64,000 nucleotides of DNA from contig OZ243040.1 of assembly GCA_965211995.1 (NCBI GenBank), positions 1,235,363 through 1,299,362 on the forward strand, written 5' to 3'. Both the position numbers and the translations under genes were made by a program. Positions 2 through 53,289 of the stretch are shown piece after piece; position 1 is the first letter of the stretch, and each line of letters begins with the position of its first letter. The notes below the pieces were generated by a model. It was not told the DNA's origin. It did no database searches and saw nothing but the letters and a program-made list of their open reading frames with translations. This DNA is from Candidatus Oxydemutatoraceae bacterium (GTDB lineage: Bacteria > Pseudomonadota > Gammaproteobacteria > Poriferisulfidales > Oxydemutatoraceae).

Positions 2-1807
2 GCCGCCGCCGCCGGCGGCCTCACAGCGATCAAGCGCCGGCACGGCCCGTCCGCCCTCGCCGGCTTCGGGTCGGCCAAAGGCTCGAACGAGGAAGCCTAT
101 CTGTTCCAGAAACTGGTGCGCACCGGCTTCGGCAGCAACAACGTTGACCACTGCACGCGGCTGTGTCACGCATCGTCGGTCGCCGCGCTGCTCGAAGGCA
201 TCGGCTCAGGCGCGGTTTCCAATCAGGTCGCCGACGTGGCCCAAGCCGAAGTGATTATCGTCATCGGCGCCAACCCGACCGACAATCACCCGGTCGCCGC
301 GACCTTCATAAAGAACGCCGCGCGGCACGGCAAGACCCTGATCGTGATAGACCCCCGCCGCACCGAACTCGCGCGCTACGCCGACTACTTTTTGCAGTTC
401 AAGCCCGACACCGACGTCGCACTGCTCAACGCGATCATGCATTCGCTCGTCAAACAGGGCCTGACCGACGAGACTTTCATCGCAAACCGCACCGAAGGTT
501 TTGCCGGGCTGCGCGAACATCTCGAAGACTTCAGCCCCGAGCGGGTCGAGAATATCTGCGGCGTTGACGCCGCCGTGATCCACGAAGTCGCAAGACTGTA
601 CGCATCGTCGCAAGGCTCGATGATCTTCTGGGGCATGGGCATCTCGCAACACGTTCACGGCACCGACAACGCGCGCTGCCTGATCGCGATGGCGATGATG
701 ACCGGTCAGATCGGCCGCCCCGGCACCGGCCTGCACCCGCTGCGCGGGCAGAACAACGTGCAGGGCGCCTCCGACGTCGGGCTGATCCCGATGGTGTTCC
801 CGGACTACCAACGCGTTGACGACGCCGACGCGCGCGCGCGCTTCGAGAAGTTGTGGGGTCTCGCGCTCGACCCGAAACCGGGGCTGACCGTCGTCGAGAT
901 CATGCACGCGATCAACGACGGGCAAATAAAAGGCATGTACGTCATGGGCGAAAACCCCGCGATGTCGGACCCCAACCTGTCCCACGCGCGCGCGGCTCTC
1001 GCCAAACTCGACCACCTGGTCGTGCAGGACATCTTCCTCACCGAAACGGCGCTGTTCGCCGACGTAGTGCTGCCGGCGTCGGCGTTTCCCGAAAAAACCG
1101 GCACCTTTACGAACACCGACCGCCGGGTGCAACTCGGGCGCCAGGCGGTTGCGCCGCCCGGCCGGGCGAAACAGGACTTGTGGATCATTCAGGAGATCGC
1201 AAACCGCATCGGATTGGATTGGCGTTACGAACACGTCTCCGAGGTGTTTGACGAAATGCGCCAAGGCATGGACAGCATCGCGGGCATTGATTGGGAGCGG
1301 CTTGAAAAAGACCATTCGGTCACCTACCCGTGCACCGAAAAAAACGACCCCGGACAACCCGTCATCTTCACCGAGCGGTTCCCGACCGCAAGCGGCCGCG
1401 GCAAGTTCGTGCCCGCCAAACTCACGAACGCCGATGAACTGCCCGACGGCGAGTATCCCTATATCTTCATCACCGGCCGCCAACTCGAGCATTGGCATAC
1501 CGGCGCGATGACCCGGCGCGCATCGGTGCTCAACGCACTCGAGCCTGCGCCCGTGGCTTCGATCCACCCCGACGACCTGAAGAAAATCAAGGTGCCGCCG
1601 GGGGGCACGGTCAGATTGTCCTCGCGCCGCGGCATGATCGAATGTTGCGCCCGCGCCGACGACGGCTTGACCCCGGGGCAAGTGTTCATGCCCTTCTGCT
1701 ACCGCGAAGCCGCCGCCAACCTGCTGACCAACGAGGCGCTCGACCCGTACGGCAAAATCCCGGAATTCAAGTTCTGCGCCCTGAAAATAGAGGCGGCGCC
1801 GCACTGA
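2..1807 (+). CDS. formate dehydrogenase alpha subunit / molybdopterin oxidoreductase catalytic subunit (5' end lies upstream of the window)
   Basis: 563-aa ORF runs in from the window edge. Molybdopterin oxidoreductase hallmarks include TRLCHASSV with GSGAVSNQV, IIVIGANPTDNHPV and a C-terminal molybdopterin-dinucleotide-binding region. Confidence 0.8.
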   Translation, partial: AAAAGGLTAIKRRHGPSALAGFGSAKGSNEEAYLFQKLVRTGFGSNNVDHCTRLCHASSVAALLEGIGSGAVSNQVADVAQAEVIIVIGANPTDNHPVAATFIKNAARHGKTLIVIDPRRTELARYADYFLQFKPDTDVALLNAIMHSLVKQGLTDETFIANRTEGFAGLREHLEDFSPERVENICGVDAAVIHEVARLYASSQGSMIFWGMGISQHVHGTDNARCLIAMAMMTGQIGRPGTGLHPLRGQNNVQGASDVGLIPMVFPDYQRVDDADARARFEKLWGLALDPKPGLTVVEIMHAINDGQIKGMYVMGENPAMSDPNLSHARAALAKLDHLVVQDIFLTETALFADVVLPASAFPEKTGTFTNTDRRVQLGRQAVAPPGRAKQDLWIIQEIANRIGLDWRYEHVSEVFDEMRQGMDSIAGIDWERLEKDHSVTYPCTEKNDPGQPVIFTERFPTASGRGKFVPAKLTNADELPDGEYPYIFITGRQLEHWHTGAMTRRASVLNALEPAPVASIHPDDLKKIKVPPGGTVRLSSRRGMIECCARADDGLTPGQVFMPFCYREAAANLLTNEALDPYGKIPEFKFCALKIEAAPH

Positions 1808-1887
1808 AAAGCGGCCGGACAACGGCCGCGCCTGTTAAAATAGGCGTGTCTTGTGGAATCACCAATCAACTTGGGGCGGAAAAAAAC

Positions 1888-2220
1888 ATGAAAAAGACTC
1901 TCTATAAAGTGACCTTCATAGATCAAGATGAAGCCTACTCGCTCTATGCCGCCAAGGTCTATCAGGCGGACTTGTTCGGCTTCATCGCGATCGAGGAAAT
2001 CAACTTCAACCAAAGCGATTCGCTGGTCGTGGACCCGTCCGAAGAGCGTATGAAACACGAATTTCGGGACGTCAAACGCTTCTTCGTCCCGATGCACTCG
2101 ATCATCCGCATCGAGGAAGTCGAGAAAACCGGCGTCGCCAAGATCACCGCCATCAGCGACCAAGTCACAAAACTGCACCGCCCGGTCTATACCGAAAATG
2201 GGACGAACAAGGCGAAGTAA
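1888..2220 (+). CDS. small conserved hypothetical protein (DUF-type, about 110 aa)
   Basis: Internal ATG at aa 133 of ORF 1492..2220. The 1492-1887 part is antisense to the fdh gene end. Codon usage is GC3-biased. Confidence 0.5.
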   Translation: MKKTLYKVTFIDQDEAYSLYAAKVYQADLFGFIAIEEINFNQSDSLVVDPSEERMKHEFRDVKRFFVPMHSIIRIEEVEKTGVAKITAISDQVTKLHRPVYTENGTNKAK

Positions 2221-2301
2221 AAATCCGGAATCAGGGATAGAGGCTGTTAAAATCACCGCCGACGGTGCCACGGACGGCGGACACGAAGAATAGAGACTAA
2301 C

Positions 2302-2392
2302 GGAGAGGTGGCCGAGTGGCTGAAGGCGCACGCTTGGAAAGCGTGTATACGGTTCTCCCGTATCGAGGGTTCGAATCCCTCTCTCTCCGCCA
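2302..2392 (+). tRNA. tRNA-Ser (anticodon GGA)
   Basis: GGAGAGGTGGCCGAGTGGCTGAAGGCGCACGCTTGGAAAGCGTG...GGTTCGAATCCCTCTCTCTCCGCCA. Long variable arm, GGA in the anticodon loop, CCA encoded. Confidence 0.85.
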
Positions 2393-2699
2393 TATTTTCA
2401 TCTCGAGAGACTTGCCGTTTAAAAAAACAGGATTTCAAAAGTGGGAAAAACAATAAAAATTTTCCTTGTTGATGGAGAACCTGATGGATTGAAACCCGCC
2501 GAACTAAGCAACCGGGCCGGTCAAACAACAGTTATTCCAAGAAATAAACTCAACGGTATCAAACAACGTTCTTAAGGGATTATAAGAAATAATCATGGCA
2601 AAAACGGAAGGAGACTTCCAGCCGACCATCCAAGACTTTCATTTGAAAAGGCATTTGGCCCACGGAATTTTTGCTTTTTACGGTCTTTATGAAAACGAA

Positions 2700-2810
2700 C
2701 GGCGCCCCTCGTCTGAAACGCCTCAACGCCGATGCCGCCAATGCGAACACCGCGAGCACAACGGCCGCCGCAATGACGATGCTCGGACCCGACAACGCAT
2801 CAATCAAGCA
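2700..2810 (-). pseudogene. fragment homologous to the znuB 3' end (about 35 codons, stop codon lost)
   Basis: Minus-strand translation reads SGPSIVIAAAVVLAVFALAASALRRFRR, against intact ZnuB SGPSIVTAAAGMFAVLALMSPVLARFRQ. DNA is about 70-75% identical to 6096-6200, in the same orientation. Confidence 0.55.
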
Positions 2811-2879
2811 CCCATTTCATCAAGGCGGCATTAGATTGGATCAGGCAAACTTATCCGATTCATTGAAACGCCGATCTAC

Positions 2880-3158
2880 ATGGGAGCCGAACGAGTTAAA
2901 AGCCCGAATCACCCCGCGCAAAAGCCGGTAAAAGTCCTGGAACACGTCATTAACCTTGCCTCGAACGAAGGCGACTTAGTGTTCGCCCCGTTCATGGGCG
3001 TCGGATCGACCGGGGTCGCCGCACTTAATCTGAACAGAAAATTTATCGGCATCGAGGCCGCTGAAAAATATCACGAAGCCGCAAAGAAAAGGCTGAATAA
3101 ACGACCCGCTAAATTATTCGCAGCCAAACGACAACTGAGCATAGCCGGGCAGTTATGA
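2880..3158 (+). pseudogene. C-terminal remnant of an N6/N4 DNA methyltransferase
   Basis: HPAQKPVKVLEHVI...GDLVFAPFMGVGSTGVAALNLNRKFIGIE is the conserved N4/N6 methylase C-terminal block. Only about 90 aa survive, with no N-terminal domain, and the upstream frame is disrupted. Confidence 0.55.
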
Positions 3159-3212
3159 ATATAGAAAGCGCAACATTTAATCGCAGAGAGTAAAAGACGC
3201 GAATGCTCCACC

Positions 3213-3246
3213 GGAAACCAACCGCAGCAAGCTGCGGTTGGTTTCC
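3213..3246. repeat. perfect inverted repeat GGAAACCAACCGCAGC-AA-GCTGCGGTTGGTTTCC (16-bp arms)
   Basis: Seen directly in the sequence, in the spacer between the convergent methylase remnant and hepT. A second perfect palindrome, CCGGACTAGTCCGG, lies about 100 bp further on. Confidence 0.6.
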
Positions 3247-3420
3247 GTCACGCCTACATAGTCGCCATCACGGAATCCCTTCACCTGCTCGCATAATTTC
3301 TGCACCGGCGGCGGCAACTTCTCCATGCGCGAACCGGACTAGTCCGGCACCCAACGGACGCCGGGATCCGGAACGTCCCAGGGGGGACGCGGGAAAATCC
3401 GGGGGAAGTGGCATGGGAAA

Positions 3421-3834
3421 TTATTTCAGTAAGTCGGCAAGTATGCCGGCGAATTCTATTAAGTCATCGGCATCTTTCTTGAGCACCTTTTCCACCAGCG
3501 TATAGTCAATCTCCCGATACTGATGAACGGTGATGTTTCTAAATCCCACCATGCCTTTTAATTTCTCTTCCAACTCAGCATCTATGATGTCCGCTTTCCA
3601 GAGCAAGGTAAAACTCTCGGCGCTTTCAGACGGAAGTCCAAGTTTTTTCAGACGAATTACATGGTTCGCCATGTCAATACACTGTTCGCAGGCTCTCTGT
3701 AAATTAACAACCACCGCATCTTGCTTATAAAAGTCATCGGTGAAAGGTTTTTCCGACGGGATTGCATAATAATCCCGCGCCTGCTTTATGCGCCGCTCTA
3801 TGCTGGCTTTTTTCTGCCAGAGAATATCAGACAT
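3421..3834 (-). CDS. hepT: HepT-family HEPN toxin (DUF86, nucleotidyltransferase substrate-binding protein-like)
   Basis: 137 aa. The Rx4HxY HEPN motif is present (RNITVHQY). It overlaps the upstream mntA by 8 nt. Confidence 0.8.
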   Translation of the reverse strand: MSDILWQKKASIERRIKQARDYYAIPSEKPFTDDFYKQDAVVVNLQRACEQCIDMANHVIRLKKLGLPSESAESFTLLWKADIIDAELEEKLKGMVGFRNITVHQYREIDYTLVEKVLKKDADDLIEFAGILADLLK

Positions 3835-4267
3835 CGTAAAACCTCCCGGTATTCAAACCACTTTCAACGATTTCCCGACGCTCCTCATTCAGTTTTTGAT
3901 AAAAAGACAGCGTCAGCATTTCAAATTCATCAGCCGCATTCTCATCAGCGCAGTAAATGCGCCGGTCGGCGGCGATAATTTCCTTGCGCAGAATCACCGG
4001 AGCCGTGCGTAGATTGACTAAATCAATACGATCCACTTTTGCGGCTGATGCAACTTCAACTGAAAGGTGGCCCCACGTTGAATAGTCAATGTCTCGCGCC
4101 GTTGTATTCGGAAGGAGCACGGCGATGTCCAAGTCGCTATCCTGGCGCTGGTATTCGGTGCCCCAGGTGCCGTAGATGTAAATGGCCTGGGTTTTGGGGT
4201 AAGCTTTCAAAATAGAATCAACAGATCTAGCAACAAATACTTCGATGCGTTTGGGAACAATAGTCAT
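3827..4267 (-). CDS. mntA: MntA-family minimal nucleotidyltransferase antitoxin
   Basis: 146 aa. The NTase motif GTWGTEYQRQDSDLDIAV (GS...DxD) is present. It overlaps the upstream gene by 4 nt and hepT by 8 nt. Confidence 0.8.
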   Translation of the reverse strand: MTIVPKRIEVFVARSVDSILKAYPKTQAIYIYGTWGTEYQRQDSDLDIAVLLPNTTARDIDYSTWGHLSVEVASAAKVDRIDLVNLRTAPVILRKEIIAADRRIYCADENAADEFEMLTLSFYQKLNEERREIVESGLNTGRFYDV

Positions 4268-5058
4268 AACTTATATCCCCAAATTTTATTGCGGTCTACA
4301 TGGCTCGTCATATCGGAGCATCGGTTTCCAGCGTGCTTTAACCACGAAAACATCCAAAGAAACCAAACAAAAAGAGAATTATCTTCTAGACACAAAAAAT
4401 CAAACATCTCGTTTCCTATTGCATCACGTTTAACTGGGGCTAGAGGTTTCTCATACGGACTATTCGGCTGACTCAATTTTGACAAAGATCGGTATGAACC
4501 ACCCGAAACAAGAAATTTTCCTGGGACAACAATGAAATCTGGGGATTCTCTATTAGGAATATCTTTAAGTATTAATTGAAGATTTTTTTTGACTGTCTTT
4601 GAGGCCGGTGCATCAAACGCCCAAAGGGTGAATAGCGAGTCCTTGATTTGTGGTATATGAGAATCACCGAACTCCCGAAGAAGTGTCTTGAACTTCCGAC
4701 ATTTTTTAACTGCATCTTGAATATCACGCGGATTGAGTTGCGTCTTAACTTCAATCAGGCTGTAAACAGATTCAACTAGGAAAATTTTTTTAGACATCTC
4801 TGAATGTAAACAGGTATTCCATATTTCATCATAAATAACTAAATCGGCTTCATTCGAAAATACCCCATTATGAGAAGTAATTAGTCCTGTATCCACGCCA
4901 AAGGCAGATGGCGGGTGTTTGCTTAAAAAATCAGCAAGAATACCTTCCCTGTTTTGCCCTGCTGAAAGATTGTGTGAGGTGAAATCACGATGGATACGTT
5001 CATGTTGGGAAGACATCTCCTTTGAGATTTCCCTCAGATATTCAGGCAACATGCTCAC
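4264..5058 (-). CDS. hypothetical protein with a PD-(D/E)xK-like nuclease motif, first gene of the mntA-hepT operon
   Basis: 264 aa (262 aa if the ATG at 5052, which has a GGAG RBS, is used). The motif ...EADLVIYDE...(x20)...LIEVK fits the D...(D/E)xK core. I recognise no named family. It overlaps the mntA start by 4 nt. Confidence 0.6.
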   Translation of the reverse strand: MSMLPEYLREISKEMSSQHERIHRDFTSHNLSAGQNREGILADFLSKHPPSAFGVDTGLITSHNGVFSNEADLVIYDEIWNTCLHSEMSKKIFLVESVYSLIEVKTQLNPRDIQDAVKKCRKFKTLLREFGDSHIPQIKDSLFTLWAFDAPASKTVKKNLQLILKDIPNRESPDFIVVPGKFLVSGGSYRSLSKLSQPNSPYEKPLAPVKRDAIGNEMFDFLCLEDNSLFVWFLWMFSWLKHAGNRCSDMTSHVDRNKIWGYKL

Positions 5059-5104
5059 ACTCCAATCTCCAAAATCTTCATCGTGTCATTCCCGAATATA
5101 TCCA

Positions 5105-5138
5105 CCACCTTGACGGCGATCTTCCGCCGTCAAGGTGG
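5105..5138. promoter_or_regulatory. perfect 14-bp inverted repeat CCACCTTGACGGCG-ATCTTC-CGCCGTCAAGGTGG about 50 nt upstream of the three-gene operon
   Basis: Seen directly. It overlaps the stop codon of the decayed upstream gene and is followed by a TATATT -10-like element and then a GGAG RBS. Candidate operator and/or terminator. Confidence 0.4.
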
Positions 5139-5139
5139 G

Positions 5140-5733
5140 CATTCTTGTTTCACGCTGGTCAATTCCAGCGAGCGGTCTTTCTTGGTGCGGAAACTTTGCC
5201 ATTCGTTTTCAAAGATGTAGTCGCCGCTCCATTGTTTTTCGGTTTCGCCGGTGTCTTCGTTTTTGACGCGGATGATTTCGCGTTTGCTTTCGAAGTCGAA
5301 GTCCACGGCTCAGTAGTCTATCCAGTCGGTTCAATGTTTGATTAGTTGTTCGCGGGAGATTTTACCATTTTTGTCTTTGCTGACGCGCACAATCTGGCCG
5401 TGGTCGGCGACAATTTTGGTTTTGCCGTCTTTGAGGGATTCTTCGGCGTTGGCGATACCCTGGGAGTAGTGTACGGAGAAGTCGGTCAATTCCACGGGCA
5501 CCGAAGCAAGTCCCCCTGACAAGAAGGATTTAGGGGGTTGCCTGTTCTCAACCCGACTCAGCAAATCAGTATGGACCCCTTCAAGATTATTCAGGATTGG
5601 TCTTACCCCGTTTTAACGGATACCGGTTTAGACTGAGGCCTCCTGCTGTTCATACACGACGGGCAGCGGCCTGCCGGCTTCGAGCAACCTTACGGCATCG
5701 CGCTTTTCACTATCTGTTAATTTCATTCGTTAG
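5140..5733 (-). pseudogene. remnants of one or more decayed genes of unknown function (in-frame stops)
   Basis: The minus-strand reading is broken by two in-frame stops: ...ISREQLIKH* TDWIDY* AVDFDFESKREIIRVKNEDTGETEKQWSGDYIFENEWQ... A 32-aa MKLTDSEKRDAVRLLEAGRPLPVVYEQQEASV stub sits at about 5635-5733. Confidence 0.35.
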
Positions 5734-6095
5734 TCGCTCCGCCGGGCGGCTGCTTAACTTGTTTTAATGACCAAATACATGCGCCCGCAAATCACGCCGA
5801 GATGGCTGCAAGCCTGCGGATTCGCCACGGGCTTCGACCGCAGATGACCTGCCCCTGAAGCATATACCAACAGCAACTTAGGAAAATTCATAGTGGCAAA
5901 TCCACACGCCCCGCTCCAGTTGCTGTTGCAGTATCTTCATGCAGGACCGCCACTTTGAACAGCGCGTAAAGCGAACTGCCCGCAGGGCGCGCGACGGAGA
6001 TAAATCTTATTTTTCCCGATCACCGGTTCAAATCTCGCTTGCAGAAAAACGTTTAACTCCCGCTATCAGGCTTATGCACGGCGGCTCCCCCGTAA

Positions 6096-6911
6096 CTATT
6101 GCCTGAAACGCGCAAGCACCGGCGACATCAATGCAAGCACCGCGAACATGCCGGCCGCCGCGGTGACGATGCTCGGGCCCGACGGCGTGTCAAACTTCAC
6201 CGAGCCGAAAATGCCGCCGATCACCGCGAGCACGCCGATCACCGCCGCGGCCACGGCCATCGCTTCGGGCGAGCGCGCCAACTGACGGGCGGCGGCGGCG
6301 GGAATAACCAGCAGCGCCGTGATCAGCAGGATGCCGACGATACGGATCGACACCGCCACCACGATCGTCATCAGAAACATCAGCAGCAACTGCGTCCAAA
6401 AAACACTTACGCCTTCCGCTTTGGCCAGGTCTTCGTGCACGGCCATCAGCACCAGCGACGGCCAGTTGACGAACAGCAGGCCGAGCACCACAACGCCGCC
6501 GCCGTAGATCCAATACAACTCTTGCGGCGTGACGGTCAGGACGTCGCCAAACAGGTAGCCGTGCAGATCAAAGCGCGGATTATCCAGAAAACTGATCGCC
6601 ACCATCCCGACGGCGAGCGCGGCGTGGGCCAGAATGCCGAGCAAGGTATCCGTCGCCAGCACCCGCTTTTGCTGCAGCCACACCAGCAGCACTGCAAAGA
6701 CGGAGCAGACCAGCACCGTCCCCGGACCGACGCCGAAGCCGTAGAGCAGGCCGAGGGCGACACCGAGCAAAGCGCTGTGGGCGAGCGAGTCGCCGAAATA
6801 AGCCATGCGCCGCCACACCACGAAGCAACCGAGCGCACCCGCAACGAGGGCGACGCCGACGCCCGCGCCCACCGCGCGGAGAATAAAGTCATCGGGCATT
6901 GCTGCCTGCAT
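6096..6911 (-). CDS. znuB: zinc ABC transporter permease ZnuB
   Basis: 271 aa polytopic membrane protein of the ZnuB/MntB family, sitting between znuC and the cluster end. Confidence 0.85.
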   Translation of the reverse strand: MQAAMPDDFILRAVGAGVGVALVAGALGCFVVWRRMAYFGDSLAHSALLGVALGLLYGFGVGPGTVLVCSVFAVLLVWLQQKRVLATDTLLGILAHAALAVGMVAISFLDNPRFDLHGYLFGDVLTVTPQELYWIYGGGVVVLGLLFVNWPSLVLMAVHEDLAKAEGVSVFWTQLLLMFLMTIVVAVSIRIVGILLITALLVIPAAAARQLARSPEAMAVAAAVIGVLAVIGGIFGSVKFDTPSGPSIVTAAAGMFAVLALMSPVLARFRQ

Positions 6912-7620
6912 CGTGCCGGTGGTCGTGCGTATGGTGATAAACCGTCATCATCCGCGCCATGTCGTCTCCGAACAGCGATATGAACTGCGGGTCTTTGGCG
7001 ACCGCCTGCGGCTCGCCGGAGCAGCACACGTGATGGAACAGGCACACCACCTTTCTGGTGCAGGACATCACCAAATGCAAATCGTGGGACACCATCAAAA
7101 TGCTGAGATCGCGCTCAGCGTAAATACGTTCCAGCAGTTTGTAGAACGCCAGTTGGCCTGAGACGTCGAGGTTCTGCGCGGGTTCATCCAGGATCAGCAA
7201 CTCCGGGGAATCCAGCAGCGCACGGGTCAGCAGCACGCGCTGCAATTCGCCTCCGGAAAGCGCATGCAGCGGCTTTGCGAGCAGCGCCCGAACGGCGGTT
7301 TCCTCTCCCGCCTTGCGGATCGCCGGGTCGTCCGCTCTTTTCCGCAGCGTCAGAAAACGCCGAACCGTGATCGGCATAACGCGGTCAACGGTCAGGGACT
7401 GAGGCACGTAGCCGATCTTGACGCCCCGTTTGCGAACGACGCCGCCTTTATCCGGCTCATAAAACCCCATCAGGCATTTAAGCAGCATTGATTTCCCCGC
7501 GCCGTTGGGGCCGATGACGGTAATAAAGTCACGTTCGCCGATCGTGAACGACACGTCTTTCAGAATCGCCCGCCGTTCACGGAAGACACTGACCTTCTCC
7601 GCCGTGATGAGTCCGTTCAT
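6889..7620 (-). CDS. znuC: zinc ABC transporter ATP-binding protein ZnuC
   Basis: Walker A GPNGAGKS, ABC signature LSGGELQ and Walker B LILDEP are present, plus a His-rich C-terminal tail. Start taken at MNGLITAEK. Confidence 0.85.
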   Translation of the reverse strand: MNGLITAEKVSVFRERRAILKDVSFTIGERDFITVIGPNGAGKSMLLKCLMGFYEPDKGGVVRKRGVKIGYVPQSLTVDRVMPITVRRFLTLRKRADDPAIRKAGEETAVRALLAKPLHALSGGELQRVLLTRALLDSPELLILDEPAQNLDVSGQLAFYKLLERIYAERDLSILMVSHDLHLVMSCTRKVVCLFHHVCCSGEPQAVAKDPQFISLFGDDMARMMTVYHHTHDHRHDAGSNAR

Positions 7621-7621
7621 T

Positions 7622-8089
7622 TCACGCCTCCCCGCGCCTGCATTCCCGGCACTTCCCCTCAATCTCCAAAGTGGTGTGCCTGGGCTCAAATTGATTCCTG
7701 CCGGTCGCTTTCCGGATCGCCCGCTTCAATTCGCCGCTGCAACACTCCTCGATCTCCCCGCAAGTGGAGCAAAACAGAAAATAACATTCATCGTGCTGCA
7801 GCGGATGGCTGCACCCGACGTAGGCGTTGAGACTGTTAAGCCGGTGCGCCAAGCCGTTGACCAGTAAAAAGTCCAGCGCCCGATACACCGTCGGCGGCTT
7901 GGCGCCGGCGGTGCCGACACCCAGTTTTTTCAAAATGTCGTAGGCTTTCGCCGGGCGGTGGCTCGCCCAGATCAGCCGCAGCACCTTGCGGCGCAATTTG
8001 GTGAAGCGCGCTTCCCGGTCGCGGCAAACCGCTTCAGCGTTGAGCAACGCCTCGCTGACGCAATCCTTGTGCGCGTGGCAAACCTGCAC
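7622..8089 (-). CDS. zur: zinc uptake regulator Zur (Fur family)
   Basis: Aligns with E. coli Zur (AKPPTVYRALDFLL, C-x2-C pairs). A GTG start preceded by GGGGGAGG gives about 155 aa. The upstream ATG at 8132-8134 would fall inside the Zur box, so I did not use it. Confidence 0.75.
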   Translation of the reverse strand: MQVCHAHKDCVSEALLNAEAVCRDREARFTKLRRKVLRLIWASHRPAKAYDILKKLGVGTAGAKPPTVYRALDFLLVNGLAHRLNSLNAYVGCSHPLQHDECYFLFCSTCGEIEECCSGELKRAIRKATGRNQFEPRHTTLEIEGKCRECRRGEA

Positions 8090-8117
8090 GGCGGCCTCCC
8101 CCGGAGCCACATAAGTT

Positions 8118-8134
8118 ACGTTATAATATAACAT
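8118..8134. promoter_or_regulatory. Zur box (GTTATA-a-TATAAC dyad) in the zur/znuA divergent region
   Basis: ACGTTATAATATAACAT matches the proteobacterial Zur-box core TGTTATAwTATAACA. It abuts the znuA ATG at 8136. Confidence 0.65.
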
Positions 8135-8135
8135 A

Positions 8136-9104
8136 ATGCGGAAAACGCTTGCCTGCTTCCTATCCGCGCTGCTTGCGGCCGGCGGCGCCCTCGCGGCGAC
8201 CGCGACCGACGGCAACGGCGTCGTGGTCAGCATCAAACCTCTGCACGCACTGGTGCAAGGGGTAATGGGCGGCACCGGAGAAGCTCGATTGCTGGTCGCA
8301 GACAACGCTTCACCCCACGGCTTCTCCTTCAAACCCTCGCACCTAAAGGCACTGCACGAGGCCGACGTCGTCTTTTACATTGACGAAACGTTCGAGCCGT
8401 TCCTGCACGGCGTCTTTGAAACCTTGCCGGCGCACGTGCGCAAAAACGCGGTGGCGCGGGCGGCGAACTTGACCGTTCTTGACCGCCGCGCAGGCGGCGC
8501 CTGGGAAGCGCACGCCCACGCAAGCCACGCACAAGAGGCCGGCGAAGAAGCCGAAGAAAACCGCAACAATCGCGACCCGCACGTGTGGCTCGACCCCGGC
8601 AACGCGAAAAAGATCGTAACGGCCGTCACCGGGGAACTCGGCGAGATTCACCCCGAAAACCGCGGTGTTTACAGGCACAACGCCCGCGCCGTGACCGCCC
8701 GCCTCGACGCGCTCGAGGCAAGGCTGGAGCGGGAACTCGCCGGCGTCCGCGACGTGCCGTTCGTCGTATTCCACGATGCTTATCAGTATTTTGAGCACCG
8801 TTACGGCCTGACCGGCGTCGGCTCGATCACTTTGAACCCGAACCTGCCTCCTTCGGTGGGCCGCATTCGGGAAATCCGCGGCAAGATCAGCGCCGCCGGC
8901 GCGGTCTGCGTCTTCCGCGAGCCGCAATTCTCCGACCGGCTGATAAAAGCGGTAACCCCCGCGGGCAACGTCAAAAGCGGCGTCCTCGACCCGCTCGGCG
9001 CCGGACTGGAGAACGGGGCGGACTTATATTTCAATCTGCTTGCAAACCTTGCGGAAAACTTCGTGCAATGCCTGGCCGATCCCGAGTCGGCGCGCACCCT
9101 CTAG
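8136..9104 (+). CDS. znuA: periplasmic zinc-binding protein ZnuA
   Basis: Signal peptide, cluster A-I substrate-binding-protein fold, and the characteristic His/acidic-rich loop HAHASHAQEAGEEAEENRNNRDPH. Confidence 0.85.
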   Translation: MRKTLACFLSALLAAGGALAATATDGNGVVVSIKPLHALVQGVMGGTGEARLLVADNASPHGFSFKPSHLKALHEADVVFYIDETFEPFLHGVFETLPAHVRKNAVARAANLTVLDRRAGGAWEAHAHASHAQEAGEEAEENRNNRDPHVWLDPGNAKKIVTAVTGELGEIHPENRGVYRHNARAVTARLDALEARLERELAGVRDVPFVVFHDAYQYFEHRYGLTGVGSITLNPNLPPSVGRIREIRGKISAAGAVCVFREPQFSDRLIKAVTPAGNVKSGVLDPLGAGLENGADLYFNLLANLAENFVQCLADPESARTL

Positions 9105-9408: not shown

Positions 9409-10287
9409 ATGAAAAACGGCTTCGCAGGCGTCCGGGTCATTTTATTGTTTGCGCTCGGCTTAACGGCCGCATCCGCAGTTTCACAGGAGCGCAACGGGGC
9501 TTATTGGGGGCTCGACCTCGGCGTGTTTTTCCCGCAAAGCATCGCCTCCGATACCAACACCGACGACGTCGCCTCCACCAGTTGCGACGGCTTTCTGTTT
9601 GATAACTCAGCCCCGGCGTGTGCGCGACGCGGGGTGGATTTTATGAACCGCTTTGATATGGAAACCGGCGTGCTCGGCGGTGCCACTGTCGGATACATGA
9701 TGGACCACTTCCGTTTTGAACTCGAATACCTTTACAGAACGGGCGGAGGAGACACCTCTTCTCTGGGAATCATCAATAACAGAGGGGCCGGGGAGTTCGT
9801 GGTCGCCGATGAAAGCTTGGATGACTTTGAGTCGCACCACCTGTTTGCGAACATGTATTACGACTTTTTGAACAGTTCGAGATTTACGCCGTATTTCGGC
9901 ATCGGCATCGGCTGGACAAAAACCCAAGTTGACTACCAGGGGCTTTTTATCAGAAACAGCGCCGAGGTCTTCAGGAGTACTCCCGGCCTGAGAGACGTTG
10001 AAGCGGCGGCCGGAACCGTCTCCCGCAGCGAAGAAGAACTCGACGACGATGGATTCGGCTATCAACTTCTGGTCGGAGCCGATTACTGGATTGCGGAACA
10101 TCTTTCTCTCGGCATGAAAATCCGCTATGCCGAATTCGACGGGATCAGCGACGGACGCCACGAATGGGACCTGCTCAGAAGCCATGAATCGGCGCTCGAG
10201 CCCGGCGGCGACCGCGTCACCCTTGATGTTGACACCGACGATATTCGGTTCTGGGGCGCCTCGCTGAACCTGAAATACCAATTCTAG
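9409..10287 (+). CDS. outer-membrane beta-barrel protein (OmpA-like/Opa-like surface barrel family)
   Basis: Signal peptide MKNGFAGVRVILLFALGLTAASAVS, alternating amphipathic strands, C-terminal ...LNLKYQF ending in Phe. RBS GGAGG precedes the start. Confidence 0.6.
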   Translation: MKNGFAGVRVILLFALGLTAASAVSQERNGAYWGLDLGVFFPQSIASDTNTDDVASTSCDGFLFDNSAPACARRGVDFMNRFDMETGVLGGATVGYMMDHFRFELEYLYRTGGGDTSSLGIINNRGAGEFVVADESLDDFESHHLFANMYYDFLNSSRFTPYFGIGIGWTKTQVDYQGLFIRNSAEVFRSTPGLRDVEAAAGTVSRSEEELDDDGFGYQLLVGADYWIAEHLSLGMKIRYAEFDGISDGRHEWDLLRSHESALEPGGDRVTLDVDTDDIRFWGASLNLKYQF

Positions 10288-45767: not shown

Positions 45768-45859
45768 GGCGGAGAGGGTGGGATTCGAACCCACGTGCCG
45801 GTTTGCACCGACCATCTGATTTCGAGTCAGCGCCGTTATGACCACTTCGGTACCTCTCC
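45768..45859 (-). tRNA. tRNA-Ser (anticodon CGA)
   Basis: The reverse complement GGAGAGGTACCGAAGTGGTCATAACGGCGCTGACTCGAAATCAGATGGTCGGTGCAAACCGGCACGTGGGTTCGAATCCCACCCTCTCCGCC has a long variable arm and CGA in the anticodon loop. Confidence 0.8.
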
Positions 45860-48074: not shown

Positions 48075-49064
48075 TCAGTGAGGAATGCCGCCCGGCGGCT
48101 CGCGCTGGGGTTCGGGCGGCGACCAGTTCTCAAGGTGCACGCCGAGTTCGAGGTGGTTCACCTTGAGCACGTCCTTGATCTCCTCCAACGACTTCATGCC
48201 GATGTTCGGCGTGCGCTTGAGTTCGGCCTCGGTCTTCTGCACCAGATCGCCGACGCGGTAGATGTATTCGGCCTTGAGGCTGTTGACCGCGCGCCGGCTC
48301 AGACCTAATTCCTCGAGCGACCTCATCAGTATCGGGTTGACCGCGAGATCCAGCGGTCTCTCCTTTTCGGCCTGCATATCCCTGAGGTCCACGAAAGTTT
48401 CGAGTTGCGAGTACAGAATGCGCGCGGCAAACCGCACCGCCTCTTCGGGGTCTATCGTGCCGTCGGTCTCCATCTCGATGATCAATTTATCGAGGTCGGT
48501 GCGTTGTTCCACGCGCGCGCTTTCGACGCTGTAGAAAACCTCGCGCACGGGGCTGAAGCTCGCGTCGAGCAGCAGCGTGCCGATCGGGTGCTCGCCGTCG
48601 GTGCGCGACGCGGGCTGGTAGCCGCGCCCTTTGGCGACTTTCAGCGTCACGTTCAACTCGCCTTTCTCCGACAGGTTGGCGATGACGTGATTACGGTTGG
48701 CGAACTCGACGGTGTCATCGGTCTTGATGTCGGCGGCGGTCACCGCGCCGGCGCCTTTCTTGTTGAGCGTAATGACGGCGGCGTCCTTGTGCCCTATCAC
48801 CGCGAGCTCCTTGAGATTGAGCAGAATGTCGGCGACGTCTTCCTGCACGCCCTCGATCACGGTGTACTCATGCAACACCCCCTCGATCTGCACTTCGACG
48901 ATCGCGTAGCCGGGAATGGAGGACAGCAAAATGCGCCTCAATGCACTGCCGAGCGTGTGCCCGAAACCGCGCTCGAGCGGCTCCAGCGACACCCGCATCC
49001 GGGTGTCCGAAATTCTGCGCACATCTACTATGCGCGGCTTTAACAGCTCATCCTCGTAGGCCAC
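48075..49064 (-). CDS. rpoA: DNA-directed RNA polymerase alpha subunit
   Basis: Direct family match (N-terminal domain plus alpha-CTD). Confidence 0.95.
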
Positions 49065-49114
49065 TCTCCAATCCTCCGCTGGTTTGCAATGATTGCCGCC
49101 GGGAGTCTCGCCGA

Positions 49115-49735
49115 TTACTTGGAATACAGCTCGACCACCAACGACTCGTTAATGTCGCCGGACAATTCGCTTCTTACGGGAATCGCCTTGAACACGCCTT
49201 TCATCTCTTCGCCGTTGACCTCGACCCAGTCCGGAAACCCGATCTGGTCGGTAACGCTCAGCGCGTCTTTTATGCGCAGTTGCCCGCGGGCTTTTGCGGT
49301 CACCGAAATCAGGTCGGACGGATTGACCTGATACGACGGCACGTTGACGGTGTGCCCGTTCACCGCGATCGCCTTGTGCCCGACGAGTTGCCGGCACTCG
49401 GCGCGGGTCGCACCGAAACCCATGCGATAGACGATGTTGTCGAGACGGCATTCGAGCAGTTTCAGCAGGTTTTCGCCGGTCGAACCTTTGCTGCGCGCGG
49501 CCTGCTTGTAGTAGTTGCGGAACTGGCGCTCGAGCACCCCGTAGATGCGGCGCACTTTCTGTTTCTCGCGCAGTTGCACGCCGTAGTCCGACACGCGCGG
49601 CCTGCGGTCGCCGTGCTGCCCCGGCAGTCTTTCCATGTTGCACTTAGAGGCCAGCGAACGCGCGCGCCCCTTAAGCATCAGGTCGGTGCCCTCGCGCCGG
49701 CTCAGCTTGCAGGTTGCTCCGCGGTAACGCGCCAT
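49115..49735 (-). CDS. rpsD: 30S ribosomal protein S4
   Basis: Direct family match. Confidence 0.95.
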
Positions 49736-49748
49736 CGTCCCGGTCTCT

Positions 49749-50150
49749 CTACACGCGCCGGCGCTTGGGCGGGCGGCAGCCGTTGTGCGGAATCGGCGTC
49801 ACGTCGGTGATGCTGGTGATCTTGAAGCCGACCGCGTTCAACGCGCGCGCCGCCGATTCGCGCCCCGGCCCCGGCCCGCGCACGTTCACCTCGAGATGCT
49901 TGATCCCGAACTCAACCGCCGCGCGTCCGGCGCGGTCGGCCGCGACCTGCGCGGCAAACGGCGTGCTCTTGCGCGAACCGCGAAAGCCCGACGACCCCGC
50001 GGTCGCCCAGCACAGGGCGTTGCCCTCGCGGTCGGTGATCATCACGATGGTGTTGTTGAAAGTCGAAGTGATGTGCGCCACCGCCTCGGAAACCATTTTC
50101 CGCGCCTTTTTGCGGCTGCGCCCTTTTTTCGCCATCTTTGCCATCGCCAT
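49749..50150 (-). CDS. rpsK: 30S ribosomal protein S11
   Basis: Direct family match. Confidence 0.95.
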
Positions 50151-50507
50151 CTATCTCTTGATCGGTTTGCGCGGGCCTTTGCGTCCGCGCGCGTTGGTGC
50201 GCGTCCTTTGCCCGCGCACCGGCAGGCCGCGACGATGCCGGACGCCACGGTAACAGCCGAGGTCTCTGAGGCGCTTGATATTGAGATTGATCTCACGCCG
50301 CAGATCGCCCTCGATCAGGTACTTGACGACTTCCTTGCGCAAGTTTTCAAGGTCGGACTCGGGCAGGTCTTTGATCACCACGTCGTACTTGACGTTGCCG
50401 ACGGCGCAGATCTTGCGCGCGGTGCTTCTGCCGATGCCGAAGATCGCCGTCAACGCCACTTCGGCGTGCTTGCGATCGGGAATATTGATGCCTGCTATGC
50501 GTGCCAC
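50151..50507 (-). CDS. rpsM: 30S ribosomal protein S13
   Basis: Direct family match. Confidence 0.95.
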
Positions 50508-50644
50508 GACGTTGGCTCCCGGCCCGTCCGGGAATTCCGGATAGACAAAAAGGCGAAATTATAAACGAAGTCGCGGCGTCCATCCAACGCACAGCACCGA
50601 TCGCCGCCGCCGTGGCCATATTCGCGGGTCATCCCTCGTCTCTT

Positions 50645-50758
50645 CATTCCGGCGTCACCCCTGGCGCTGCTTGTGACGCGGGTCGGTGCAGATCACCCGC
50701 ACCACGCCCCTGCGGCGGATCAGTTTGCAATTCCTGCAGATCTTCTTGACCGAGGCTC
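50645..50758 (-). CDS. rpmJ: 50S ribosomal protein L36
   Basis: [37 protein letters not shown], 37 aa. Not in the ORF track because it is shorter than 60 aa. Confidence 0.9.
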
Positions 50759-50778
50759 TGACTTTCATCGCATCTGCC

Positions 50779-52119: not shown

Positions 52120-52132
52120 TACCCGGCTCCCC

Positions 52133-52579
52133 TCACTCGGCCTCGATCCTGCCGCCCGCGCGCGCAATCGCTTGCGCGGCGCCGGCGGTCGCGGCGAGAC
52201 CTTTCAAAACCACCGGCCTGGTGATCTCGCCCGCAAGGATCACCTTGGCGCGTTTGGCCGCAGCGGGAATCAGCCCGGCGGCGTGCAACGCCCGCATATC
52301 AATCACCTCGGCTTCGACCCGCGCGAGTTCATGCAGACGCACCTGCGCAGTCAACCCCGCCCGCGGCGAGCGAAAGCCGATCTTAGGCAAGCGCCGCTGC
52401 AACGGCATCTGTCCGCCTTCAAAACCGACCCTGGCGCCCCCGCCCGCCCGCGAACACTGCCCCTTGTGGCCGCGGCCGCAGGTCTTGCCGAAGCCGGAGC
52501 CGTTGCCGCGACCGACGCGGCGGCGCGATCGGTGGCTGCCGGCGGCGGGCTTCAATGAGTTGAGCTTGAGTTCAGGCAT
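52133..52579 (-). CDS. rplO: 50S ribosomal protein L15
   Basis: Direct family match. Confidence 0.95.
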
Positions 52580-52754
52580 CTTCCACCTTCAGCATATATT
52601 GCACTTTGTTGATCATGCCGCGGTTCTCGGGCGTGTCGTCCACCACCACCGCATGGTGCATCCGGCGCAGGCCGAGGCCCCTGACGCAAGCCTGGTGCTT
52701 GTGCAGCCTGCCGGCGGTGCTGCGCACCAGCGTAACTTTGAGTTGTCCCGCCAT
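52572..52754 (-). CDS. rpmD: 50S ribosomal protein L30
   Basis: Direct family match. Confidence 0.95.
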
Positions 52755-52769
52755 CTTCGTCTTCCCGCG

Positions 52770-53279: not shown

Positions 53280-53289
53280 CGCTGCCTCC

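What the first reader, a model, noticed from the sequence alone, without database searches (positions are those of the whole stretch)
3421..5140. Intact three-gene operon: PD-(D/E)xK-like protein + MntA + HepT, embedded in a decayed tRNA-Ser island - candidate tripartite TA/defence module
Three minus-strand genes are translationally coupled (4-nt and 8-nt overlaps): a 262/264-aa protein, an MNT nucleotidyltransferase (GS...DxD motif) and a HEPN HepT toxin (Rx4HxY motif). HepT/MntA is the established type VII toxin-antitoxin pair. The extra upstream gene is not part of the canonical pair, and I recognise no named family for it. Its EADLVIYDE...LIEVK core fits a PD-(D/E)xK nuclease fold. It is the only intact coding unit left in an otherwise eroded, AT-rich island and has its own palindromic upstream site, so selection is evidently maintaining it. 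It could be a third toxin or effector component, or a sensor coupled to the AMPylation-based TA pair.
Basis: partly seen in the sequence, partly recalled or inferred. Interest (0 to 1): 0.85.

Follow-up and report, generated by a model that had tools for sequence, protein, structure and literature searches.

The report
NucC-like nuclease beside HepT/MntA toxin-antitoxin pair
The three overlapping genes are real, but they are two separately exchangeable defence modules (a NucC-type DNA nuclease lacking NucC's signal-sensing residues, and an ordinary HepT/MntA toxin-antitoxin pair) left as the only intact cargo of a Type III restriction-modification operon whose own genes have decayed.

Summary
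Three minus-strand ORFs (264, 146 and 137 aa) overlap by 4 and 8 nt in a low-GC, gene-poor patch.

The flanks are pseudogene stubs of a Type III methylase (mod) and restriction subunit (res). Relatives carry the intact operon mod–DUF6602–MntA–HepT–res.

The "tripartite system" reading is weak:
- About 75 more distant DUF6602 loci lack MNT/HEPN neighbours.
- The closest HepT/MntA relatives (80% and 75% identity) sit in the same operon slot with no DUF6602 gene.
- The modules differ in GC3 (0.34 vs 0.50).
- Repeat scars show cargo swapping.
- Gene 1's recent evolution looks neutral (dN/dS 0.77), whereas MntA/HepT are under purifying selection.

Best reading: two independent cargo modules nested in a dead R-M operon, probably kept by toxin-antitoxin addiction. 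Moderate interest: a sensor-less NucC variant and a repeat-bounded cargo slot.

The parts
4264..5058 (-). Gene 1: 264-aa DUF6602 / NucC-fold PD-(D/E)xK DNA endonuclease. Catalytic D72, E103 and K105 are intact. NucC's cA3-sensing residues are not conserved.
3827..4267 (-). MntA: minimal nucleotidyltransferase antitoxin, 146 aa, motif G33-T34-x10-D45-x-D47. Its start overlaps the gene 1 stop by 4 nt.
   Evidence: NCBIfam MntA_antitoxin 86.5 bits, cut-off 60. Pfam Polbeta 7.9e-16. Motif. Omega 0.15-0.27 against the nearest relatives.
3421..3834 (-). HepT: HEPN RNase toxin, 137 aa, motif R99-x4-H104-x-Y106. Its start overlaps the MntA stop by 8 nt.
   Evidence: NCBIfam HepT_toxin 136 bits, cut-off 60. 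Pfam HepT-like 3e-30. Motif. Omega 0.10-0.15.
5058..5597 (-). Pseudogene: C-terminal remnant of the Type III Mod methylase, equivalent to L001 Mod residues 769-982. It has three in-frame stops (about 5331-5333, 5310-5312 and 5130-5132) and an internal gap. Its stop codon overlaps the gene 1 start.
   Evidence: tblastn 71% identity, 1e-85. Frame translation compared with L001. L001 Mod matches PADLOC MTase_III at 2.3e-112.
5652..5726 (-). Pseudogene: N-terminal 25 codons of the same Mod methylase. Residues about 26-768 are deleted.
   Evidence: tblastn. Translation MKLTDSEKRDAVRLLEAGRPLP compared with L001 VNLSDNEKRDVVKLIESGKPLP.
5065..5102 (-). Junction element: the last codons of the mod ORF (..VVDIFGNDTMKILEIGV*) plus the Shine-Dalgarno sequence. 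In related loci it recurs in front of every cargo gene.
   Evidence: Fuzzy DNA and peptide search over all loci. Alignment of six loci. Extended repeats in L006 and L004.
5105..5138 (.). Perfect 14-nt inverted repeat with a 6-nt spacer, inside the dead mod ORF. It is perfect only in this window.
3203..3414 (-). Pseudogene: stub of the Type III Res subunit. It covers the first 64 or so codons, with a frameshift near codon 11 and an in-frame stop. Homology ends at about 3200.
   Evidence: tblastn to L001, L002 and L036 Res. blastn collinearity with L036. Frame translations. PADLOC REase_III 8.7e-20 for L001 Res.
2880..3158 (+). C-terminal fragment (92 aa) of a different N6/N4 DNA methylase on the opposite strand. 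It is not syntenic with the operon's Mod.
   Evidence: Pfam N6_N4_Mtase 2.3e-22, profile positions 160-221 only. Only 37% identical to L001 Mod residues 361-433.
2713..2803 (.). Left copy of a 91-nt direct repeat. It is a displaced pseudo-copy of the 3' end of the ABC-3 (ZnuB-like) permease gene, and the probable island boundary.
   Evidence: the repeat finder D1, 75% identity. ORF 2580..2807 translation resembles the permease C-terminus.
6103..6193 (.). Right copy of the 91-nt direct repeat. It forms the functional 3' end of the ABC-3 permease gene 6096..6911(-).
   Evidence: Pfam ABC-3 8.7e-67.
2302..2392 (+). tRNA-Ser(GGA), adjacent to the island.
   Evidence: ARAGORN. Rfam tRNA 57 bits.

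Best explanation
The locus is the wreck of a Type III restriction-modification operon that carried nested defence cargo between its mod and res genes.

Shown: in this window mod has an internal deletion plus three nonsense codons. res is frameshifted and truncated after about 64 codons. Both are dead, and only the cargo is intact.

Inferred: the cargo consists of two functionally independent modules that happen to share one transcription unit.

(a) MntA/HepT, a type VII toxin-antitoxin pair. By homology to the Shewanella pair, MntA uses ATP to attach AMP units to the tyrosine of HepT's Rx4HxY motif (Y106 here) and so blocks the RNase. When MntA supply fails, unmodified HepT cleaves RNA and arrests the cell.

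(b) A NucC-fold, Mg2+-dependent DNA endonuclease with an intact catalytic centre (D72/E103/K105). It lacks NucC's cyclic-tri-AMP contacts and gate loop. It is therefore probably a stand-alone defence nuclease of the DUF6602 kind (like the single-gene 'Damona' system), and its trigger is something other than cA3.

Inferred: the cassette outlived the R-M genes mainly because the TA pair is addictive. Any deletion that removes the shared upstream promoter or MntA unleashes HepT. Gene 1 lies between the promoter and MntA, so it is carried along, and it currently evolves at about the neutral rate.
For: Identity of the parts.

R-M ancestry:
- The window flanks align to Mod residues 1-25 and 769-982 and to Res residues 1-64 of L001.
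- The window is collinear with L036 over 3203-5527.
- Stops and a frameshift are seen directly in the translations.
- Intact operons exist in L001/L010, L002-L004 and L036, with Mod = MTase_III at 2.3e-112 and Res = REase_III at 8.7e-20.

Independence of the modules:
1. 83 distinct DUF6602 loci were collected. Of the roughly 75 outside the close clade, 51 have at least 600 nt downstream. None of these has MntA/HepT, apart from one weak, differently arranged pair in L034. No Polbeta or HepT family recurs among 48 downstream ORFs.
2. The HepT and MntA closest to the window's (80-81% and 73-76% identity) lie in L100, L101 and L102 with no DUF6602 gene. In L100 an AAA_15 ATPase occupies the same slot. 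The HepT and MntA of DUF6602-bearing loci are more distant (59-75% and 56-72%).
3. GC3 is 0.34 for gene 1 against 0.50-0.51 for MntA/HepT.
4. In L004 a 243-nt AAA_15 fragment separates gene 1 from MntA, so gene 1 was inserted there without the TA pair.
5. L001 keeps an intact gene 1 even though HepT is deleted and the MntA DxD motif is broken (DLG).

Loss of the sensor: Ec NucC R53 aligns to A52. H136 and Y141 fall in a 7-aa deletion. T226 aligns to C247, a variable position. Only Y81 to W80 is conservative. No CD-NTase, Cas10 or CRISPR hit was found among 59 other window ORFs.

Selection: MntA and HepT have omega 0.10-0.27 with a third-position excess. Gene 1 against L001 has omega 0.77, differences spread 17/16/17 over codon positions, and rejects omega 0.2 at P = 4e-6.

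Precedent: L102 shows the same decay independently, with a mini-Mod remnant, an intact MntA-HepT pair and a roughly 200-nt Res stub.
Against: - Within the close clade the order DUF6602-MntA-HepT, with a 4-nt overlap between gene 1 and MntA, is kept in four loci although synonymous sites are saturated (dS about 1).
- In L006 the three genes sit together outside any R-M operon and are bracketed as one block by repeats. They can therefore move as a unit.
- MntA here has GT rather than the canonical GS, so AMPylation activity is assumed, not shown.
- A nuclease that is non-specific and sensor-less needs some control, and none was identified.
- No experiment supports defence activity for this subfamily. 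The link to Damona rests on shared domain hits, not on a sequence comparison.
- The addiction argument does not explain why gene 1 has kept an open frame. Simulation gives about a 32% chance of that under neutrality, so this point is uninformative either way.
Confidence: 0.6

Rival explanations
1. Integrated tripartite system. Gene 1 is a second toxin or effector of the same module: a DNase kept in check by MntA (for example by AMPylation) or by the HepT-MntA complex. One antitoxin would then control both an RNase and a DNase.
For: Gene 1 and MntA are translationally coupled (ATGA overlap) in the window, L001, L006 and L036. The gene order is conserved in five other loci at 58-87% identity with saturated dS. 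In L006 the triad stands alone and is repeat-bracketed as a block. L001 kept gene 1 and MntA after losing HepT.
Against: About 75 more distant family members have no MNT partner. In L001 the MntA catalytic DxD is broken while gene 1 stays intact. The window's MntA and HepT are closer to those of DUF6602-free loci, so there is no co-evolution. GC3 differs between the modules. In L004 an AAA_15 remnant separates gene 1 from MntA. In L100 the slot is occupied by an unrelated ATPase.
Confidence: 0.15
2. Gene 1 in this genome is a passenger on its way to becoming a pseudogene. It is open by chance, no longer under selection, and retained only because it lies between the promoter and the addictive TA pair.
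For: Against L001, omega is 0.77 and not different from 1 (P = 0.22). Differences are spread 17/16/17 over codon positions. An open frame after about 25 random substitutions is expected 32% of the time. The window-specific changes L49P and G196S hit positions conserved in at least 28 of 30 relatives. mod and res in the same operon are already dead.
Against: All invariant family residues, including the catalytic ones, are retained. There are no indels against L001 over 795 nt. L001 shows a similar number of derived changes (13 against 15), which also fits fast, diversifying evolution typical of defence genes. The adjacent mod tail acquired three nonsense codons while gene 1 acquired none.
Confidence: 0.15
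3. Nucleotide-signal effector. Gene 1 works like canonical NucC and is allosterically activated by a cyclic or linear oligoadenylate. The signal would be made by a cyclase elsewhere in the genome or, more exotically, derive from MntA's tri-AMP chemistry.
For: The fold is NucC over the full length, including the N-terminal helix that NucC uses for hexamer formation. An aromatic residue (W80) sits at the position of the base-stacking Y81. R246 is invariant in a C-terminal loop near where NucC's T226/V227 align. MntA of the Shewanella system adds exactly three AMPs (PMC7641770).
Against: R53, H136, Y141 and T226, each of which is required for cA3 activation in E. coli NucC (bioRxiv 10.1101/694703), are absent or replaced, and the gate loop is 7 residues shorter. 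No cyclase or CRISPR component was found in the window. No conserved neighbour exists in the roughly 75 other family loci.
Confidence: 0.05

Closest known systems
NucC (cA3-activated endonuclease effector of CBASS and type III CRISPR; PDB 6P7O/6P7P, 6UXF, 7ZGV)
   Different: Only 15-18% identical. The cA3 phosphate contact R53 is replaced by Ala. Gate-loop latch residues H136 and Y141 are deleted. T226 is not conserved. There is an extra insert of about 28 aa (191-218) and a 2-aa insert carrying the invariant R246. It is not encoded next to a CD-NTase or Cas10.
Damona (single-gene DUF6602 anti-phage system from Vibrio cholerae integron cassettes; bioRxiv 10.1101/2024.07.02.601686)
   Same: The same combination of hits is reported for Damona: DUF6602, the Cas PD_DExK model and the CBASS small endonuclease model. 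Most members of the present subfamily are also solo genes in variable defence or mobile contexts.
   Different: The present ~265-aa subfamily has no full-length relative in the phage or plasmid collections, whereas Damona homologues are reported in Acinetobacter prophages. Defence activity is untested here.
HepT/MntA type VII toxin-antitoxin (Shewanella oneidensis SO_3166/SO_3165; PMC7641770)
   Same: Both NCBIfam equivalog models score above their cut-offs. MNT lies upstream of HEPN with overlapping genes. The Rx4HxY motif with the acceptor Tyr is present. The DxD metal site is present.
   Different: The MNT motif is GT-x10-DxD across this whole sponge-symbiont clade, instead of GS-x10-DxD. 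The pair is habitually placed directly upstream of a Type III res gene.
PrrC / EcoprrI and other HEPN nucleases nested in R-M operons (Anantharaman et al. 2013, PMC3710099)
   Same: A latent HEPN RNase gene is embedded inside an R-M operon, which is interpreted as second-line defence. Clustering of NT-associated HEPN genes with R-M operons is already described.
   Different: PrrC is an ABC-ATPase-HEPN fusion held inactive by a Type Ic enzyme. Here the host operon is Type III, the RNase has its own MNT antitoxin, a DNase is added, and in this window the R-M partner is dead.
Integron cassette arrays
   Same: In related loci each cargo module is preceded by the same short repeat, and alternative cargos occupy identical flanks.
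   Different: There is no integrase and no attC-like palindrome. The repeat is the coding 3' tail of mod together with the ribosome-binding site of the next gene. Exchange would have to be by homologous recombination, which is an inference.

Membership tests
HepT/MntA type VII TA | HEPN toxin with an Rx4HxY motif (catalytic R and H plus the acceptor Tyr) | tested here: met
   R99-NITV-H104-Q-Y106. NCBIfam HepT_toxin 136 bits against a cut-off of 60.
HepT/MntA type VII TA | MNT antitoxin with a GSx10DxD motif | tested here: inconclusive
   The motif is G33-T34-x10-D45-L-D47: Thr replaces Ser, as in all seven clade members that have the motif. NCBIfam MntA_antitoxin still scores 86.5 bits against a cut-off of 60. 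In the Shewanella study only the double change GS to AT was tested (PMC7641770).
HepT/MntA type VII TA | Antitoxin gene immediately upstream of the toxin gene in one operon | tested here: met
   MntA 3827..4267 and HepT 3421..3834 on the same strand with an 8-nt overlap.
HepT/MntA type VII TA | MntA poly-AMPylates HepT, and HepT is a growth-arresting RNase | not testable with these tools
   Requires expression, toxicity assays and mass spectrometry.
NucC (cA3-activated effector nuclease) | NucC-type restriction-endonuclease fold with family-specific embellishments | tested here: met
NucC (cA3-activated effector nuclease) | Active-site motif IDx30EAK (D73, E104, K106) | tested here: met
   A-D72-x30-E103-V-K105. 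D72 and K105 are invariant and E103 is at least 90% conserved in 32 relatives.
NucC (cA3-activated effector nuclease) | cA3 pocket residues R53, Y81 and T226, each essential in E. coli NucC | tested here: not met
   R53 aligns to A52 (mostly A, K or S in the family). T226 aligns to C247, a variable position. Only Y81 to W80 is conservative, and only in the close clade. The C-terminal part of the alignment is of low confidence.
NucC (cA3-activated effector nuclease) | Gate loop with the H136/Y141 latch | tested here: not met
   The loop is 7-8 residues shorter and both latch residues fall in the deletion, by hhalign and by MAFFT --add.
NucC (cA3-activated effector nuclease) | Encoded with a CD-NTase (CBASS) or a type III CRISPR Cas10 | tested here: not met
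   No such gene was found among 59 other window ORFs. There is no conserved neighbour in the other family loci. The rest of the genome was not searchable.
NucC (cA3-activated effector nuclease) | Homotrimer that forms a hexamer on activation | not testable with these tools
   Only monomer prediction is available.
Pfam DUF6602 (PF20247) | Score above the gathering threshold | tested here: met
   79.2 bits against 27, residues 26-126. All 34 homologues carry PF20247.
Damona (single-gene DUF6602 defence system) | DUF6602 protein that confers phage defence on its own | not tested
   The domain signature matches the published description.
Type III restriction-modification system | Intact Mod methyltransferase and Res helicase-nuclease genes | tested here: not met
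   In the window Mod lacks residues about 26-768 and has three nonsense codons. Res is frameshifted and cut after about 64 codons. Both genes are intact in relatives L001, L002-L004, L036 and L100.

The most novel reading that the evidence does not exclude
The three genes form a real dual-nuclease toxin-antitoxin and defence unit. MntA, the enzyme that builds a tri-AMP chain on HepT, would also control the NucC-derived DNase. It could do so either by AMPylating the DNase or because the DNase has re-purposed NucC's tri-adenylate pocket to read the AMPylation state of HepT or released oligo-A. Loss of MntA activity during infection would then unleash an RNase and a DNase together.
Probability: 0.06. 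Interest if true: 0.85.

Novelty: new variant of a known kind. Interest (0 to 1): 0.4.

Why it matters
Three points could be of use.

1. NucC is the textbook example of a nuclease gated by a cyclic trinucleotide. This rare subfamily (37 clusters at 50% identity among 1.84 billion representatives) keeps the fold and the catalytic site but has lost the sensor residues and any cyclase partner. It therefore poses a clear, testable question: how is a NucC-type DNase controlled without cA3?

2. In sponge-symbiont-like genomes the mod-res interval of a Type III R-M operon acts as a slot for interchangeable defence cargo: DUF6602 nuclease, AriA-like ATPase, Ppl, a Schlafen-like protein and MntA/HepT. 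A repeat derived from the mod tail bounds the cargo modules. This suggests a simple recombination route for shuffling defence genes.

3. The window and L102 illustrate how a toxin-antitoxin pair can outlive the defence system that carried it.

None of this overturns current ideas. The 'tripartite system' claim that made the finding look exciting is the least supported part.

Tried and rejected
- **Close-clade scan of JGI metagenome contigs:** pattern hits only, no relatives.
- **Viral contig scan with the family alignment:** none.
- **tblastn of gene 1 against the phage and plasmid collections:** only N-terminal DUF6602-domain matches under 35% identity, with no full-length relative.
- **The window's own record:** The nearest relative is a Candidatus Poriferihabitaceae MAG.
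- **AFDB fold library:** unavailable.
- **Rfam on 1800-6400:** only the tRNA.
- **Promoter and terminator scan of 3000-6100:** no more hits than in shuffles, and no convincing promoter directly upstream of gene 1. Transcription is assumed to start at the old mod promoter.
- **Palindrome as an operator:** considered and rejected because it is imperfect in relatives and lies in coding sequence.
- **tRNA-Ser as the integration site:** considered, but no repeat of the tRNA 3' end was found.
- **The opposite-strand methylase fragment (2880-3158) as the operon's Mod:** rejected on strand and on 37% identity.
- **PADLOC hits to mad2, mad3, mad8 and AriA-like models elsewhere in the window:** not localised. 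Ten low-GC3 ORFs tested were negative.
- **Damona sequence:** not found in the supplements or in a citing paper.


Full report
**1. Observation**

The three minus-strand ORFs are present exactly as described (sequence read):
- gene 1, 4264..5058, 264 aa from GTG
- MntA, 3827..4267, 146 aa
- HepT, 3421..3834, 137 aa

They overlap by 4 nt (ATGA) and 8 nt (ATGTCTGA). In relatives an ATG or GTG lies at the position of the window's GTG, so 264 aa is the likelier product.

The region is compositionally foreign. GC is 0.39-0.53 against 0.60-0.65 around it. GC3 is 0.34-0.51 against 0.75-0.85 for host genes.

One detail needs correcting: MntA reads GT-x10-DxD, not GS.

**2. Identity of the proteins**

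HepT and MntA pass NCBI's equivalog models for the type VII system, at 136 and 86.5 bits against cut-offs of 60.

Gene 1 is not family-less:
- It matches Pfam DUF6602 (79 bits).
- It matches PADLOC's CRISPR-associated PD_DExK model and its NucC models.
- It matches solved NucC structures by sequence, E = 8.6e-9 alone and 1.9e-19 with a family profile.

The catalytic residues D72, E103 and K105 correspond to NucC's D73, E104 and K106. D72 and K105 are invariant and E103 nearly invariant in the family.

Lau et al. showed which residues are essential for cyclic-tri-AMP activation of E. coli NucC (bioRxiv 10.1101/694703). They are not kept here:
- R53 aligns to Ala52.
- The gate loop is 7-8 residues shorter and lacks H136 and Y141.
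- T226 aligns to a variable position.
- Only Y81 to W80 is conservative.

No cyclase or CRISPR gene was detected among 59 other ORFs of the window.

The full-length subfamily is rare. It has 37 clusters at E of 1e-30 or better among 1.84 billion representatives, within a DUF6602 superfamily of about 2,000 clusters.

**3. What the flanks are**

Proteins from related loci, searched by tblastn against the window, show the following:
- Window 5597..5058 encodes the last 214 or so residues of a Type III Mod methylase (71% identity to L001).
- Window 5726..5652 encodes its first 25 residues.
- Window 3414..3222 encodes the first 64 or so residues of the Type III Res subunit.

Direct translation shows a large internal deletion and three nonsense codons in mod. 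In res it shows a frameshift, an in-frame stop and truncation.

The window is collinear with L036 from 3203 to 5527.

In relatives the operon is intact:
- L001/L010, a Candidatus Poriferihabitaceae MAG: Mod-DUF6602-MntA-Res.
- L036: Mod-DUF6602-MntA-HepT-Res.
- L002-L004: the same, with extra cargo.

Mod and Res of these loci score as Type III enzymes, MTase_III at 2.3e-112 and REase_III at 8.7e-20.

The island itself is about 3.3 kb. It is bracketed by a 91-nt direct repeat that duplicates the 3' end of the adjacent ABC-3 permease gene. The tRNA-Ser lies just outside it.

**4. Is it a tripartite system?**

For:
- In the close clade (58-87% identity; five other distinct loci) gene 1 is always followed by MntA, and usually by HepT.
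- Gene 1 and MntA overlap by 4 nt in four of these loci, even though synonymous sites are saturated.
- In L006 the three genes occur without any R-M genes.

Against:
1. 83 distinct loci encoding family members were collected. Outside the close clade, none of the 51 with enough downstream sequence has an MntA/HepT pair, apart from one weak, differently arranged pair in L034. There is no conserved neighbour at all. The neighbours are miscellaneous defence genes: Schlafen/AlbA_2, AAA_15/21, GmrSD, TIR and, twice, a Type I HsdR.
2. The converse test is the most telling. Close HepT relatives are far more numerous than close gene 1 relatives. The three examined have no DUF6602 gene. At 80-81% for HepT and 73-76% for MntA, they are closer to the window than any pair from a DUF6602-bearing locus. 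L100 has Mod-AAA_15 ATPase-MntA-HepT-Res. L101 has the pair inside another Type III cluster. L102 has a bare pair between a mini-Mod remnant and a Res stub. The constant feature is therefore MntA-HepT directly upstream of res. The slot between mod and MntA is variable.
3. Gene 1 and the TA pair differ in GC3, 0.34 against 0.50.
4. In L004 the two 'small ORFs' between gene 1 and MntA are a 243-nt fragment of an AAA_15 gene. Gene 1 was therefore inserted into an AAA_15-MntA-HepT unit of the L100 type.
5. In L001 HepT is deleted and MntA's DxD is mutated to DLG, yet gene 1 is intact. This argues against MntA activity being needed to restrain gene 1.

**5. Selection**

MntA and HepT show ordinary purifying selection against their nearest relatives, with omega 0.10-0.27 and a third-position excess.

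Gene 1 shows omega of about 0.2 in deep comparisons. Against its closest relative L001 (dS 0.08) the picture differs:
- Omega is 0.77.
- The 50 differences fall 17/16/17 on the three codon positions.
- Omega of 0.2 is rejected (P = 4e-6) while neutrality is not.
- Derived changes are shared between both lineages, 15 against 13. They include L49P and G196S in the window, at otherwise conserved positions.

A frame that stays open after about 25 random substitutions is expected 32% of the time. The claim that selection is visibly maintaining gene 1 is therefore not supported for the recent past. Relaxed and diversifying selection cannot be told apart with two sequences.

**6. Mechanism proposed**

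*Shown:* the anatomy, the family assignments, the catalytic motifs, the pseudogenisation of mod and res, and the modular exchange.

*From established knowledge (PMC7641770):* MntA transfers AMP from ATP to the tyrosine of HepT's Rx4HxY motif and thereby blocks the RNase. HepT cleaves mRNA when unmodified.

*Inferred:*
- The cassette was second-line cargo of a Type III R-M operon. This is analogous in logic to PrrC in EcoprrI and to other HEPN genes nested in R-M operons (PMC3710099).
- After mod and res decayed, the cassette persisted because loss of MntA or of the shared promoter would release HepT.
- Gene 1 is a stand-alone NucC-derived DNase whose trigger is not cA3. In behaviour it may be comparable to the single-gene DUF6602 system Damona.

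I put this at 0.6. The alternatives are an integrated tripartite system at 0.15, a decaying passenger at 0.15 and a nucleotide-activated NucC-like effector at 0.05.

**7. Side finding**

The last 45 or so nt of the mod ORF encode ..VVDIFGNDTMKI(V/L)EVxV*, and the stop overlaps the next start codon. This sequence recurs in front of every cargo gene, not only gene 1. There are three copies in L004 and three in L006, which has no mod gene.

In L006 the repeat extends to 300 nt at 97% identity. Together with right-hand repeats that include the last 60 nt of hepT, it brackets two alternative cargos.

This looks like a recombination-based cargo slot. I rate that reading at about 0.3.

**8. Verdict**

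Gene 1 is a recognisable, sensor-less NucC relative. The proposed three-component system is most likely two neighbours in a shared cargo slot of a dead Type III R-M operon.

Novelty: a new variant of known kinds. Interest: 0.4.

Noticed in passing
window 5065-5102(-); L004 8-45, 1927-1964, 5957-5994; L006 2912-2949, 6477-6514, 7957-7994; L001 5936-5973; L036 698-735; L037 65-102; L100 ~4764; L101 ~9571; L102 ~6507: A ~45-nt junction element recurs immediately before each cargo gene. It is the 3' tail of the Type III mod ORF (..DIFGNDTMKI[VL]EVxV*), and its stop overlaps the next gene's start. Cargo genes preceded by it include DUF6602, an AriA-like AAA_15 ATPase, Ppl and a Peptidase_M78 gene. 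It is present even in L006, which has no mod gene. It may be a homologous-recombination boundary for swapping defence cargo.
   Followed up: partly
L006 2652-2951 vs 7697-7996; 4770-4962 vs 9576-9780: A 300-nt left repeat (97% identity) and about 200 nt of right repeats bracket two alternative cargos: AAA_15 plus a 144-aa gene, or DUF6602-MntA-HepT. The copy next to the AAA_15 cargo retains a stub of the last ~60 nt of hepT, as if one cargo had replaced the other.
   Followed up: partly
L004 859-1101 vs 6877-7119; 1595-1812 vs 7120-7337: The 43-aa and 76-aa 'ORFs' between the DUF6602 gene and MntA are a fragment of an AAA_15 gene (90% identical to the full copy upstream). A truncated MntA copy (117 aa) is fused to the mod-tail peptide. 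Both are scars of an insertion into an AAA_15-MntA-HepT unit.
   Followed up: partly
window 2713-2803 and 6103-6193: A 91-nt direct repeat (75% identity) duplicates the 3' end of the ZnuB-like ABC-3 permease gene. The ~3.3-kb island therefore seems to have entered at the end of that gene rather than at the tRNA-Ser. No integrase remains.
   Followed up: partly
window 5105-5138: The inverted repeat is perfect (14/14) only in the window and about 9-10/14 in L001 and L036. One of the changes that perfects it is the GGA-to-TGA nonsense mutation in mod. This is reminiscent of quasi-palindrome correction by template switching.
   Followed up: partly
L001 6771-7196 and 7196-7261: In the nearest relative hepT is cleanly deleted, the 3' part of mntA is diverged, and MntA's catalytic DxD reads DLG. 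It is an orphan, probably inactive antitoxin next to an intact DUF6602 gene.
   Followed up: partly
L102 6342-6554, 6586-7420, 7424-7632: An independent example of the same decay pattern as the window. A 70-aa mini-Mod (the N-terminal piece fused to the tail peptide) and a ~200-nt Res stub flank an intact MntA-HepT pair among housekeeping genes.
   Followed up: partly
L084 4907-5638 / 5635-9048; L087 364-1134 / 1131-4544: Remote DUF6602 relatives (27-29% identity) end 4 nt inside the start of a 1137-aa Type I HsdR gene. NucC-like nucleases are therefore also nested in Type I R-M operons.
   Followed up: no
L007 8906-9481 and L008 1395-1970: In one branch of the family (44% identity) the DUF6602 gene is followed 27 nt later by a 191-aa protein with no Pfam hit. 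This may be a different partner.
   Followed up: no
L037 882-1643: An ORF that starts as MntA and continues into sequence matching the mod C-terminal region (window 5466-5593). It is either another recombination scar or an assembly chimera in a short Logan contig.
   Followed up: no
L002 7556-7969: HepT of this locus has Kx4HxY instead of Rx4HxY, so the catalytic Arg is replaced.
   Followed up: no
window 2880-3158(+): A 92-aa C-terminal fragment of a second, unrelated N6/N4 DNA methylase on the opposite strand. It is the remnant of another modification gene in the same small island.
   Followed up: partly
window, ORFs outside 2400-6100 (not localised): Single PADLOC hits to MADS components (mad3 4e-24, mad2 2e-22, mad8 1e-9) and to AriA/PtuA-like ATPases among the 59 other ORFs. 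Ten low-GC3 ORFs tested individually were negative. The hits may be housekeeping ATPases or another defence locus.
   Followed up: partly
window ~48900-56400, next to tRNA-Ser(CGA) 45768-45859: A run of ORFs with reduced GC3 (0.57-0.69, against about 0.8) lies a few kb from a second tRNA-Ser. It may be another horizontally acquired patch.
   Followed up: no
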